NCBI GenBank assembly: GCA_964016885.1
Contig: OZ024743.1
Span: 115,878,001 to 115,942,000 of the forward strand
Length of the DNA stretch: 64,000 nt
Source: Eledone cirrhosa
Lineage: Eukaryota
Direction of reading: 5' to 3'
Position 1 is the stretch's first letter. Each line of letters opens with the position of its first letter. The position numbers and the translations under genes are program-made. The notes below the pieces were generated by a model. That model saw nothing but the letters and a program-made list of their open reading frames with translations, made no database searches and had not been told where the DNA came from. Below are positions 1,017 to 63,585 of the stretch, in pieces.

Positions 1017-1066
1017 GAACTGCAGACACTAATGTTTCTGAGTATCACCCTTCATCAGTACAGTTC
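1017..1066 (-). ncRNA. Type I hammerhead ribozyme motif (family A)
   Basis: Minus strand reads gaactgta-CTGATGA-agggtgatactca-GAAA-cattagtg-TC-tgcagttc. 8-bp stem I, canonical core, GUC cleavage triplet. Confidence 0.8.
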
Positions 1067-2050
1067 ACCGTTCACCTGCCAACTGTCAAAGCTAGTGAAA
1101 ATATATGCTATTTTCAAAAGTACGCAGTGACTGATCGGCCTGATTTGCATATTAGCAGACTGGCTGATCAGTCGGATCTGCATATTAGCAGACCCACTGA
1201 TCAGCCAGATATACATATCCGCAGACTGGCCAGTCAGTTTCCTGTATACGAGCTTTGCGAAATTCCAATAAAGAAGAAAATATTTGCTCTACATGGCTGA
1301 ATACAATAAATGTAATGTGAGTTTTTCTAATATTAATAACATTCGATTCGTTTGCAATTATGCAAACAAGCCTCAATTTTATAGCCATGTCAGTAGAATG
1401 GACCCTTCATTCTTGCTCTCTTGTGTAGGCATGTGAACAGAACTGCGGTCACTAATATTTTTGGCAAAGCCGGCTATTTATCGTTCGTATACAGGAAACT
1501 GACTGGGCAGTGTGCTGATATGCAAATCTGGATATCACTGGATCTGCTAATATGCAGATCTGACTGATCAGCCAATCTGCTAATATGCAAATCAGGCCGA
1601 TCAGTCACTGTATATTTTTGAAAATAACATATATTTTCACTAGCTCTGACAGTTGGTATGTGAACAGTGAGCTGTACTAATGGAGGGTGATACCCAGAAA
1701 CATTAGGGTTTGCAGTTCTGTTCGCATGCCAACACACGAACAAGAATGAGGGGTTGAGTCTACTGACATGGCTTTAAAAACGAGTCTTGTTTGCATAATT
1801 GCAAACGATTCGAATGTTATTATTAATATTCGGAAAACTCAGATCACTTAATTTTAACCATACCTTATACAGCAACTACACAGCCTTCTCTCTTCTTCAT
1901 ATACATATAAAATTTTCGCTCTACATGGCTGAATACAATAAATGTAATCTTTTTTCGAATATTAATAACATTCGATTCGTTTGCAATTATGCAAACAAAC
2001 CTCATTTTTAAAGCCATGTCAGTAGAATTGCAAACGAATCGAATGTTATT

Positions 2051-2162
2051 GTTCAAATCCCGCCGAGGTTAACTTTGCCTTTCATCCTTACGGGGTCGAT
2101 AAAATAAAGTACCAGTAATGTACTGGGTCATTTCTGGCCTTGTGTCAATAGTAGAAACAATT
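2051..2162 (+). mobile_element. tRNA-derived SINE, 5'-truncated
   Basis: Starts at the B box gttcaaatc; the body matches the full copy at 29622-29805. Confidence 0.8.
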
Positions 2163-2433
2163 ATTAATATTCGATTGCATTTATTGTATTCAGCCATGTA
2201 GAGCAAGAATTGTTTTTCTATTTTGAATGTGGCAAAGCCGGCGATTTATCGCTCTTATATAGGAAACTGACTGGCCAGTCTGCTGATATGCAAATCTCGC
2301 TGATCAGTGGACCTGCTAATATGCAGATCTGACTGATCAGCCAGTCTGCTAATATGCAAATCAGGCCGAATAGTCAAATGTTTGAAAATAGCATATATTT
2401 TCACTAACTCTGACAGTTTGGCAGGTGAAAAGT

Positions 2434-2483
2434 GAGCTGTACTGATGAAGGGTGATACCCAGAAACACTAGGGTCTGCAGTTC
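2434..2483 (+). ncRNA. Type I hammerhead motif (family A); a core-decayed copy lies at ~1668-1718
   Basis: gagctgta-CTGATGA-agggtgataccca-GAAA-cactaggg-TC-tgcagttc. Confidence 0.75.
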
Positions 2484-2485
2484 TG

Positions 2486-60223: not shown

Positions 60224-61558
60224 TAGCAGCAGTACCCTGTGTTGCCTGGGTATGTATAATAAAATATGCTTTGATGAACAGATGTTGATCTTTTCTTGCC
60301 TCAGAAAAAATTTCTTTAGACTTTTGACTGAGGAATGTTCTCACAACTGACCAATGGGAGGAGAGAGTGTCCTATGATGCCGAAATTCGTTTGTTTGAAT
60401 TCACATGATTCCAGTTTCTCAGAGAAATAGCAACCCAACCAGGAGCTGGACATATCGAAGACCAGATTCTCTATCACTCATCTATGGCCACATACAGGCA
60501 TTGCGGAGGAAAGTGCTGATGACCTCTATCACTGAGACACGCGGGTGAGTGAAGAAGGGGCATGCTGGGGGAGGAAGGTAATGACCTCTAACACTAAGCC
60601 AAATTTCCTCACGCTACTTGATTGAAAACCGATGAATTCTCAAATACACAACTAAAAGCTCAGACGACGTCAGTGGTCATCGTGTCGCCTTTTACCATCT
60701 ATAAGATGTGCAATTATAGGTTCTATCTCTCTATAAAAGTTGAACCAAATAAATTGATTTATGTGTGCGGTGGAGTCAAAGTTTCGAATTTGAAGGAAAT
60801 CGGTTGCAAAACGCGGGAGCTAATGATGGGTCGCCGTGCCTTAACAAAACATGCAAAGTGTAAAGCTATTATAAGATGTGCAATGATAGGTTCTATCGTA
60901 GTATAAAAGTTGAACCAAATAAATTGATTTATGTGTGAGTTGGAGCCGAAGTTTCGAATTTGAACGAAATCGGTTGAAAAATGTGGGAGCTAGAGCCTAA
61001 AAGGCGGAAATTTGAGCGAAAAGGTGGTATTTTCGAATATTTAAGCGGCTGCCACACCGTTCCTGAAAAAGAAATTCAAAATGTAAACCCATTGTAAGAC
61101 GTGAAATAATCAGATCCAGCGTAGTTTAAAATTTGAACAAAGTAGGTTGATTAATGTGGGAGCTAGAGACGAAATTTGAGTCTAAAAGTGGTATTTTTGA
61201 ATATTTTAGCGGCTGTCACGCTGTCCCTAAAAAACAAATCCAAAATATAAAGGCATTACAGGATGTGCAGTGATAAAGTCTATTGTGCTTTAAAATCTGA
61301 ACGAAATCGATGGCGAAATGTGGGAGCTAGACCCAAAAATCTTATTTTTCGATACCTAAAAATAGGTGACCACGCCTATCGATTTTTATCTGCAGAATGA
61401 CCCCGGAATAAAAAAAAAACGATACGCTGATATATAGAAAACACTCCTCGATGACTAATCTATGAGCCTGTAATGGTTCATGAAAATCAGTCGTAAGATG
61501 TAGGCCCCTATAGGTAATACACAGACACACACACACACGCATAGTTAATGTTATATAC
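60224..61558 (+). mobile_element. Probable non-autonomous Helitron/Helentron (DINE/HINE-like) element with ~170-bp internal repeats
   Basis: Start tagcagcagtaccctgtgttgcctggg; four degenerate repeats containing 'aaatcggttg…gtgggagcta' (~60700-61335); acagacacac microsatellite near the end; TA flanks. Confidence 0.5.
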
Positions 61559-61657
61559 ATATATATATTATATATATTGTATATAAATATTATATATATA
61601 CATATTATATATATAATATATATAATATATATATTATATATATATATATATATATAT

Positions 61658-61840
61658 AATTGTTTCGACTTTTAGCACAAGGACAGCAATTACCCAGTAC
61701 ATTACGGGTACTTTATTTTATCGACCCTGTAATAATGAAAGCCAAAGTTAACCTCAGAGGGATTTGAACTCAGACCATAAAGGGCCGTAACTATTTGATA
61801 CAAAGCATGGCGTCCGACCCGCTACCGATACTGCCATCCA
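61658..61840 (-). mobile_element. tRNA-derived SINE (same family as 29622)
   Basis: ggtactttattttatcgacc…aaagttaacctc…gggatttgaactcaga. Confidence 0.85.
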
Positions 61841-61931
61841 TATAATATGTATATATTATATATATATATATATTTATATATAAAATAAAGTTAAATAAAA
61901 GTCAAATGATTAAAATTTAGCTTCGTTTATT

Positions 61932-61984
61932 ACTGCTATATATTTCAGTGACAGCCATCTTTGGCTGTGACCTCTTCAGGCAGT
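61932..61984 (-). ncRNA. Type I hammerhead (family B), intact; inverted partner at 62118-62170(+)
   Basis: actgc-CTGAAGA-ggtc-acagcc-aaagat-ggctgt-cact-GAAA-tata-TA-gcagt. Confidence 0.8.
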
Positions 61985-63585
61985 TTGAATTAGTATGGTA
62001 TAGACAAGTACATATGTTGTTTAGGTGTATAATATTGTGAATAATCTGATATGCCCAGTTCCTTGTTGGGTTGTTAAATCACTGAGGAACTGGAGTCATA
62101 TGACTCCAGTTCCTCAGTGCCTGAAGAGGTCACAGCCAAAGATGGCTGTCACTGAAATATATATAGCAGTAATAAACGAAGCTAAATTTTAATCATTTGA
62201 CTTTTATTTAACTTTACTTTACACTACACCGGAGTAACCAAATCAACCTGCGCACTTCGTCGAGTGTTCCAGCCTGCATACTGAGGTGTTGGTATACAAC
62301 CAACATAAACTCAAAATCTATATTTATATATATATATAAATATATATAAATGTGTGTGTGCGTGTGTGTATGTGTGTGTGTGTGTGTCTGTGCGTGTGGG
62401 TGTGTGAACGTGTGTGTATATATATTTAGAACTTTCATACTCCAATCGCGTATCTTCACTAAATATCTGTTCTTCGGTTACAGATTTTTAATTCTACTTC
62501 TATTCTTCTATTCATTTATCCTTTCTTTCGCATGCTAATTCTTCAAATCCACTTAAAAGTTGCTAATTACCTGTTATCAACTATTTCAATGAAGTTTTGC
62601 TGCACAGTTCTCCTAGCGATTAATATACAGGCCGATTTGGAGGACAATGATTAAAAATATAATAATGAAAATTAATGAATTTAGCGCAATGAAATGCCTG
62701 TGTTTCACTTCACTTCTCAGGATCCTACGCATAAGTCAATAGCCACTATCCATTCGGTACATATATAATATGAATTAGAGAGAATGCATATTCAGTTTGG
62801 GTTGAATGAAAAATATTACTGTCATATCGGGTTAACAATAGTTTCAATTTTAAACATACGATCTTGTCGCCATGATGGTGCGGTTCTAAATAACATCAAA
62901 ATGATATAGACAAGTCAACAGAAAGTGAATGTTGCTTGCTTAATTTAATAGCGTACGACAATAAGAGAGTTTGGATAAATGTAATTAAATTATGAACTGA
63001 GCTGTAGATAATCTGATGACGCCATAACGATATATTCAAATTACTCAATAGGTGCCTATATTCAACATTATAAACATTGCGCCCTTATATTATCTCTCTT
63101 ATTTCAATAATACAAACATTCTTACATAAGGCGATAATACGTTCTAAATATCATGTTCAATTATTTGTTCTGCATTTGTGTGTACGTTTGGTTGCTATTC
63201 GTGTGTAATCATCATTTATTATTTTTACAAATCAGAGTCAATATCAAAGGACGAGATATGAAATATAGCTGTTGAGATAACAGTTCTCTTTCATTCATCT
63301 ATTTGTATATCTGCCTATTATAAATCTCTTTATGTCTCTCTCTCTCTCTCTCTCTATATATATATATATATATATATATATATATATATGTGTGTGTGCG
63401 TGTGTGTGTGTGTGTGTGTGTGTGTGTGTGTGTGTGTGTGTGTGTGTGTATGTGTGTGTGTGTGTGTGTGTGTGTGTGTGTGTGTGTGTGTGTGTGTGCG
63501 TGCGTGTGTGTGTGTGTGTGTATCCCGGGTTCAATCGGGTGTAACACCAGTAGGTAAGGTACTTCATACATAGTAGAGTATATAC

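What the first reader, a model, noticed from the sequence alone, without database searches (positions are those of the whole stretch)
1017..62220. Inverted pairs have one fixed polarity: minus copy left, plus copy right, 3' ends pointing outward
Seen, using HHR or ORF sense as a compass: A (1017-/1668+, 2434+), E (11939-/12536+), F (14162-/14392+), C (22456-/22757+), B (55106-/~57100+ and 61932-/62118+), L (57915-/58096+), and the PLEs at 7427-9118 and 31592-34205 all diverge, and most outer ends run into (TA)n. Established: PLE insertions often carry an inverted 5'-truncated pLTR. Inference: both ends of a break in a TA tract primed reverse transcription and the two truncated cDNAs were joined. 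The arms extend past the predicted cleavage sites, so the template was uncleaved or re-ligated (circular) RNA.
Basis: partly seen in the sequence, partly recalled or inferred. Interest (0 to 1): 0.72.

Follow-up and report, generated by a model that had tools for sequence, protein, structure and literature searches.

The report
Back-to-back Penelope retroelement ends in TA
The back-to-back inverted repeats here are the known head-to-head insertion form of Penelope-like jumping genes and related ribozyme-bearing repeats, and most pairs carry one short and one long end, which likely records the element's enzyme copying its RNA once from each side of a cut in a TA repeat.

Summary
All 15 joined inverted pairs that I could orient by hammerhead (HHR) or ORF diverge (10 families). 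One pair, M, may converge; four others could not be oriented. The polarity is not new: Arkhipova 2013 calls head-to-head the most frequent Penelope-like (PLE) arrangement, with a tail on one inverted repeat. In 10 of 13 complete pairs one arm stops at a family-fixed short end and the other at a long end 40-190 nt further on. In 8 pairs each arm holds sequence the other lacks, which excludes simple fold-back copying. Junctions overlap by 2-4 nt in 8 of 11. Best reading: both strands of a cut (TA)n tract prime reverse transcription at two start sites on uncleaved RNA, and the cDNAs join by microhomology. Circular RNA is not needed. No genome or long reads were available; contigs of one public run gave 11 divergent joints against 1 possibly convergent among the rows shown. 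The scan noted this same pattern earlier on other DNA.

The parts
878..1856 (.). Pair A1: minus arm 878-1464 (about 1.4 units of a 424-nt HHR repeat) joined to plus arm 1462-1856; both ends near the short site; right end not in TA
1909..2499 (.). Pair A2: minus arm 1909-2028, plus arm 2026-2499 with a SINE-like insert at 2051-2165; right end abuts a LINE remnant
7427..9116 (.). Pair P1: minus PLE (RT C-terminal part plus GIY-YIG-like ORF 7951-9021), 5'-truncated at 9004, short end; inverted plus arm 9003-9116 with a tail of about 43 nt
9145..10352 (.). Pair I: partial tandem with long end (9145-10191) plus inverted 161-nt arm with short end; tail about 35 nt; no complete HHR, so not counted as oriented
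10648..11039 (.). Pair G: minus arm with HHR (core 10850) and short end; plus arm 10854-11039 with a tail of about 130 nt; 4-nt junction overlap
11900..12853 (.). Pair E: minus arm to 12368 (U3-A8 HHR), short end; composite plus arm 12367-12853, long end about 190 nt further
12871..13104 (.). Pair C2: minus arm with short end; plus arm from 12962 with a tail of about 90 nt
13969..14504 (.). Pair F: minus arm with a tail of about 136 nt; plus arm with short end; 17-nt loop
18044..18920 (.). Pair P1b: minus P1 copy with long end, plus a 42-nt inverted piece (18879-18920); followed by a plus-strand RT remnant that looks like another family (by eye)
22346..22841 (.). Pair C1: minus arm with a tail of about 100 nt; plus arm from 22601 with short end, followed by a SINE-like insert and then TA
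27874..30185 (.). Pair D1: minus main arm with short end; plus arm (HHR core 29857) with 168-nt tail and a SINE-like insert
31593..34205 (.). Pair D2: minus main arm with GIY-YIG-like ORF 32535-33197 and short end; plus arm 33176-34205 with 168-nt tail; short palindrome at the junction
54953..57177 (.). Pair B1: minus arm with a tail of about 100 nt; plus arm 56471-57177 with short end
57490..57796 (.). Pair K: arms end at the same site; oriented by the U3-A8 HHR of the copy at 57374 (minus)
57826..58211 (.). Pair L: near-perfect hairpin; ends within about 8 nt of each other
58676..59526 (.). Pair M: inverted arms with TA-like sequence in the centre; the only HHR-like motif is weak and points inward (possible convergent exception)
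61883..62320 (.). Pair B2: minus arm with short end, 40-nt perfect palindrome at 62080-62119, plus arm from 62118 with a tail of about 100 nt

Best explanation
These are head-to-head insertions of Penelope-like retroelements and hammerhead-bearing repeats in (TA)n tracts, likely made when the element's endonuclease-reverse transcriptase cuts both DNA strands and each free end primes copying of uncleaved element RNA from one of two fixed start sites. Shown here: the polarity, the two recurring 3' ends per family, one short plus one long end in most pairs, short junction overlaps, and ends lying past the predicted ribozyme cut. Shown by others in vitro for PAc: both strands are cut and extended, there are two internal start sites that bound the tail, and uncleaved RNA is used. 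Inferred: the two cDNAs stall and are joined by microhomology, sometimes after a short fold-back; both are likely made in one complex on one RNA, the distal polymerase displacing or following the proximal one; families with no ORF in the window would borrow the enzyme.
For: 15 of 15 oriented pairs diverge. Ends recur across independent copies: B short x3 and long x2, C short x5 (looser, a few nt apart) and long x3, D x2 and x2, G x2 and x2, P1 long x2, F long x2. One short plus one long end in 10 of 13 pairs (p=0.046 against 0.5), and 10 of 11 after leaving out A1 and K, which have a non-TA end (p=0.006). In 8 pairs (P1, G, C1, C2, D1, D2, B2, E) the main arm lacks the tail and the shorter arm has it, so neither arm can be a copy of the other. 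Junction overlap of 2 nt or more in 8 of 11, chance about 0.16-0.26 each, p at most 0.0014. Short ends share 3-4 exact TA-alternating bases with the template in 6 of 11 arms (read from the alignments; background 7% of positions). Both ORFs match GIY-YIG-bearing clusters at 0.96. Run X1 contigs: 11 divergent-type joints against 1 possibly convergent among rows shown. PMC11167929; PMC8557442.
Against: Three oriented pairs (A1, K, L) have matched ends, and M may be convergent. In I and probably B1 the main arm has the tail, which fold-back could also give; the 8 of 10 bias is not significant (p=0.11). The partner arm was the closest copy in only 7 of 12 comparisons. Frangieh found no difference in start site between the two strands and initiation without homology to the target, so nothing published forces one site per arm. 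Pairs, junctions and ends were picked by hand in one window, and the 10 of 11 subset was chosen after looking. One search showed 15 of 67 joints, the kind of joint is not printed for four of the 11 or for the convergent candidate, and X1 may be another species. The window's own 9004 junction was not among the rows shown.
Confidence: 0.6

Rival explanations
1. Self-priming on an antisense transcript (Arkhipova 2013) makes a hairpin intermediate that the endonuclease trims at the tail and integrates, giving head-to-head arms with a tail on one side.
For: Proposed in PMC3846280 from palindromes at inverted junctions. Short palindromes sit at junctions B2, D2, P1b and E. Craig 2021 attributes the tail to endonuclease-mediated resolution.
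Against: PAc does target-primed synthesis on a template RNA spanning the pLTR-ORF junction, with start sites that match the tail ends. Most junctions here are 1-4 nt overlaps between different template positions rather than symmetric folds.
Confidence: 0.13
2. Each end of the break is primed independently, possibly by different RNA molecules, each choosing a start site at random.
For: Gives the same polarity and the same junctions. Three of 13 pairs have matched ends. The partner arm is not the closest copy in 5 of 12 comparisons. A K fragment (34293-34335, minus) abuts the 5' end of the plus-strand 1-kb array.
Against: At most half of pairs should be mixed; 10 of 13 are. Young pairs have near-identical arms (G 0 of 48, B2 1 of 100 differences) while other copies differ by 5-13%.
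Confidence: 0.13
3. A single target-primed cDNA stalls, folds back and copies itself to make the second arm.
For: Gives divergent polarity. Near-perfect hairpins K, L and F, and short fold-backs at B2 and P1b. Fits I and probably B1, where the main arm has the tail.
Against: Cannot give the 8 pairs in which the shorter arm has tail sequence absent from the main arm.
Confidence: 0.07
4. The template is a re-ligated circular RNA copied by rolling circle.
For: Arms longer than one unit in A1 and I, with unit-to-unit divergence similar to arm-to-arm divergence (I 1.7% against 1.9%). Animal retrozymes do form circles (PMC7229834).
Against: Uncleaved tandem transcripts give the same sequence. PLE hammerheads cleave poorly (PMC4209133), and HHR mutants do not change PAc insertion. 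The 1-kb array alternates two unit types in its right part, which a monomeric circle would not make.
Confidence: 0.2
5. The inversions are assembly or library chimeras, or foldback DNA transposons (MITEs).
For: No long reads were available, and no listed contig spanned the window's own junction.
Against: Arms differ by 0-11%. End asymmetry recurs at the same family positions in separate copies. SINE-like inserts sit inside single arms. Other divergent joints occur in an independent run. HHRs and RT/GIY-YIG ORFs point to retroelements.
Confidence: 0.03

Closest known systems
Insertion units of endonuclease-bearing Penelope-like elements (PMC3846280, passages read; PMC8557442, passages read)
   Same: Inverted 5'-truncated copy at the 5' end, head-to-head polarity, tail on one inverted repeat, partial tandems, palindromes or overlap at the junction, bias for (TA)n.
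   Different: Tails here reach about 90-190 nt in six families (B, C, D, E, F, G) against the published 30-40 bp. The form is also seen in families with no ORF in the window. The one-short/one-long rule is counted here rather than described as optional.
PAc (Poseidon of Anolis) in vitro mechanism (PMC11167929, main text parts 1-2 of 4 read)
   Same: AT-rich target, both strands cut and extended, two start sites downstream of the HHR that bound the tail, uncleaved RNA as template, predicted dimer.
   Different: The parts read do not derive the inverted pair from two-strand priming, nor assign one start site to each arm. They report initiation without target homology, whereas short ends here often sit on TA-like words.
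L1 twin priming (as described in PMC2912911, passages read; the 2001 paper itself not seen)
   Same: Two DNA ends prime on one RNA, the cDNAs anneal at short complementarity, and the segments point outward.
   Different: In L1 the second end anneals internally, and the two segments cover different parts of the RNA (recalled). Here both arms start at fixed sites close together and overlap by 50-860 nt, which needs strand displacement or a second RNA.
Animal non-LTR retrozymes (PMC7229834, passages read; preprint 10.64898/2026.07.22.740005, parts 1-3 of 5 read) and PLE minimal hammerheads (PMC4209133, passages read)
   Same: Type I HHRs with a short palindromic helix III, tandem units (A 424 nt, array 997 nt), the U3-A8 core variant, and HHR pairs 100-700 bp apart on opposite strands already noted in 2014.
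   Different: The retrozyme passages read describe tandem arrays and monomers; the word 'inverted' does not occur in PMC7229834. Helix II here reaches about 110 nt in G and in the array.

Membership tests
EN+ Penelope-like element insertion | C-terminal GIY-YIG endonuclease | tested here: met
   P1 and D ORFs score 0.96-0.97 to atlas clusters, some bearing PF01541 (64% and 23% of members). A direct Pfam scan gave no GIY-YIG hit at E 0.01, so this rests on a feature match. Applies to P1 and D only.
EN+ Penelope-like element insertion | PLE-type reverse transcriptase in the same ORF | tested here: inconclusive
   All copies are 5'-truncated. P1 keeps a region matching PF26215-bearing clusters; no RT core was seen and no tree was built.
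EN+ Penelope-like element insertion | Hammerhead in the pLTR downstream of the ORF | tested here: met
   D: core 29857+. P1: only weak candidates.
EN+ Penelope-like element insertion | Inverted 5'-truncated copy, head-to-head | tested here: met
   15 of 15 oriented pairs
EN+ Penelope-like element insertion | 30-40 bp tail at one end | tested here: met
   One-sided tail in 10 of 13 pairs; about 43 nt in P1 and 35 nt in I, but 90-190 nt in six families
EN+ Penelope-like element insertion | Target-site duplication | not testable with these tools
   Targets are (TA)n tracts and no empty site is held
Non-LTR retrozyme | Tandem units each bearing a type I HHR | tested here: met
   21 HHR cores in the 997-nt array, 7 with a C3-to-A change. 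Family A repeats at 424 nt but no adjacent units both keep an HHR.
Non-LTR retrozyme | No coding capacity (non-autonomous) | tested here: inconclusive
   No ORF of 120 aa or more resembling RT or endonuclease in A, C, E, F, G, K or L by eye, but they may be pLTR stubs of longer elements elsewhere; no genome is held.
Non-LTR retrozyme | Self-cleavage and circular RNA | not testable with these tools
   Needs RNA data or bench work
L1-type twin priming | Microhomology at the inversion junction | tested here: met
   8 of 11 junctions overlap by 2-4 nt
L1-type twin priming | Inverted and direct segments from non-overlapping parts of one RNA (feature recalled) | tested here: not met
   Arms share 50-860 nt. 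Two joints in run X1 (to 9077 and 9084) do have a tail-only second arm.

The most novel reading that the evidence does not exclude
A Penelope-type enzyme dimer loads on one uncleaved RNA at two family-specific start sites 35-190 nt apart and assigns one site to each strand of the cut target, so that every composite insertion is an overlapping twin-priming product; the same machinery mobilises many unrelated hammerhead repeats in trans. This would give one rule for the inverted pLTR, the one-sided tail and the partial tandem.
Probability: 0.4. Interest if true: 0.62.

Novelty: new variant of a known kind. Interest (0 to 1): 0.36.

Why it matters
Craig 2021 lists the origin of PLE tandem/inverted structures and tails as an open question. 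The polarity alone adds nothing to print. The one-short/one-long rule, and the pairs in which each arm has unique sequence, argue against fold-back and turn the question into two cheap tests: a genome-wide end count, and a marked-RNA mixing assay in the existing PAc system. It also warns annotators that such hairpins in (TA)n are retroelement ends, not MITEs or microRNA precursors.

Tried and rejected
No whole genome is held, so no genome-wide count was possible. Rfam gave no hammerhead hit among 68 matches at E up to 1; the microRNA-family matches are all below gathering score and follow hairpins and TA runs. Pfam gave no family for the P1 and D ORFs. The strict hammerhead scan missed K, L and C1, which needed relaxed settings, so those orientations rest on weaker motifs. 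MFE folds of six motifs: K gave the expected helices I and II, and only K and B2 beat shuffles. No usable motif was found in I, J or N; J2 was not scanned with relaxed settings. The first microhomology script gave 6 of 11 because anchors slipped at C1, C2 and A1; re-read by hand these gave 2, 1 and 3 nt, with two nearby substitutions accepted for A1. Four junctions (F, L, B1, D2) and D1 were left out for lack of a template. The second read-laying gave one 'opposite strands' joint without direction among 11 joints. No RNA holder was listed. A sequence look-up of M and a look-up by place in earlier notes found nothing. Paper searches for an explicit two-ended priming model for PLEs found none (open-licence library only; supplements of the papers were not opened and may bear on tail lengths).
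Full report
Setting. The window is 32.7% G+C, dense in (TA)n tracts, and holds an array of about 997-nt units at 34336-54890. No whole genome is held. The host is an animal by inference; atlas clusters near the two ORFs include arthropod, mollusc and cnidarian members, which is a lead only.

Observation. A self-comparison with microsatellites masked lists the local inverted repeats. 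A type I hammerhead scan found 18 motifs outside the inner array and none in the reversed window; relaxed scans added K, L and C1. The TTGATAA core of E and K is the U3-A8 covariant described for PLE hammerheads (PMC4209133, passages). Six more do too (A2, G, C2, D1, K, P1b), giving 15 of 15 in 10 families (p=6e-5; copies of one family are not fully independent). I, J, J2 and N could not be oriented. M has only a weak motif, with no helix II, that points inward, so it may be a convergent exception; counting it gives 15 of 16. Of 28 outer ends, 22 enter (TA)n within 16 nt. Separate neighbouring insertions do face each other, so the rule concerns joined arms.

Each family has two recurring 3' ends. 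B has three copies at a short end and two at a long end about 100 nt further; C five and three; D two and two, 168 nt apart; G two and two; P1 one and two; F one and two. In 10 of 13 oriented pairs with both ends in place, one arm is short and the other long (p=0.046 against the most favourable null of 0.5); A1, K and L are matched. Leaving out A1 and K, which have a non-TA end, gives 10 of 11 (p=0.006), a subset chosen after looking. Unoriented pair I is also mixed. In 8 pairs the longer main arm lacks the tail and the shorter arm has it, so neither arm can be a copy of the other. In I, and probably B1, the main arm has the tail; B1's centre was assigned to the left arm from a resemblance to a decayed GIY-YIG that I recall and did not test (frames).

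Junctions and ends. The two arms overlap by 2-4 nt at 8 of 11 junctions with a template (G 4, A1 3, A2 3, and C1, B2, E, P1, P1b 2 each; C2 1; K and I none), p at most 0.0014. Short palindromes at B2, D2, P1b and E suggest brief fold-back before joining. All 16 ends measured lie 23-231 nt past the predicted cut, so the template spanned the cut site. Short ends share 3-4 exact TA-alternating bases with the template in 6 of 11 arms, read by eye because the script's counts ran through mismatches at B1, I and D1; 7% of positions begin such a 3-mer. Young pairs have near-identical arms (G 0 of 48, B2 1 of 100), but the partner was the closest copy in only 7 of 12 comparisons.

Evidence from other DNA. 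Twenty of 24 listed runs hold part of 7427-10350. Laying four of them on P1 gave 12,593 contigs from X1. Of 67 joints 15 were shown: 7 join the antisense arm to the sense arm (divergent) and 8 are same-strand deletions. The inserted-letter table (12 of 19 rows shown, kind not printed) adds four divergent-type positions and one that reads as convergent (9088 to 7518): 11 against 1 (p=0.006). The cluster at 9065 may be pulled there by differences of the window copy at 9061-9064. Contigs of X4, X5 and X6 continue past 9004 with the same other letters, so 9004 is a truncation point; the window's own junction was not among the rows shown. On the P1b terminal region, a go-back joint 18340 to 18057 recurs in three runs of one sample, and rows of unprinted kind land at 18045, 18078 and 18085, at or near the long end (18044) and the short end (about 18085). 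X1 may be a different species from the window.

Comparison with print. PMC3846280 (passages) calls head-to-head the most frequently observed arrangement, notes a 31-bp tail optionally at the 3' end of one inverted pLTR, and proposes self-priming on an antisense template. PMC8557442 (passages) describes the inverted 5'-truncated copy, a 30-40 bp tail often at only one end, the (TA)n bias, and the mechanism as undefined. PMC11167929 (parts 1-2 of 4) shows PAc cutting and extending both strands, two start sites bounding the tail, uncleaved RNA as the dominant substrate and a predicted dimer. PMC4209133 (passages) noted HHR pairs 100-700 bp apart on opposite strands and low cleavage. The 2026 preprint (parts 1-3 of 5) links retrozymes to pLTRs. 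L1 twin priming is described in PMC2912911 (passages). My searches found no paper deriving PLE inverted pairs from two-ended priming with one start site per arm; subscription papers are missing from the library and supplements were not opened.

Mechanism. Most likely (0.6) the enzyme cuts both strands of a TA tract, each 3' end primes on uncleaved sense RNA at one of two sites, and the stalled cDNAs join by microhomology. A PLE-type origin is about 0.9 likely, two-ended priming about 0.7, and one RNA for both arms about 0.45. The lack of RNase H in PLEs, which would let one RNA be copied twice, is recalled and not from a call. A circular template is possible for the tandem families but no sequence feature here requires it.

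Earlier notes. I had recorded the short/long pattern and this reading before seeing four earlier notes of the scan that report the same on other DNA. They are unchecked AI notes and not independent support; two of them led me to PMC3846280 and PMC7229834.

Verdict. Real; known as a structure; a modest new variant in tail length, breadth of families and the end rule. Interest 0.36.

Noticed in passing
window 34336-54890: Array of about 997-nt units with 21 HHR cores (helix II about 110 nt), 3' end running into (TA)n. From 42628 on, intact and C3-mutated cores alternate, and the dimers of the right part show 0 substitutions over the 990 nt compared. Recent dimer amplification or assembly collapse.
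   Followed up: partly
window 6131-6282, 7203-7345, 15857-16020; 7025-7146, 17872-17995: Solo HHR units (H three copies, C two copies) share fixed 5' as well as 3' boundaries next to TA, which may reflect source copies read through into flanking TA. H has a non-canonical core.
   Followed up: no
window 14936-15611 and 17428-17519: Family J holds repeated words resembling E2F, CCAAT and E-box sites (resemblance recalled), inside an inverted pair next to TA.
   Followed up: no
window 17576-17636 and 59565-59609: Tail-only fragments of C and F abutting TA at the long end.
   Followed up: partly
window 2051-2165, 24526-24920, 29624-29818, 30765-30948, 61649-61840: A SINE-like repeat of about 190 nt, partly inside arms; the 29624 copy has a duplicated flank of about 19 nt.
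   Followed up: no
window 2486-3981: LINE remnant on the minus strand with weak RT and endonuclease Pfam hits, abutting the right end of pair A2.
   Followed up: partly
window 18920-20290 and 30229-31382: Plus-strand remnants that look by eye like a further PLE RT region and a further GIY-YIG region.
   Followed up: no
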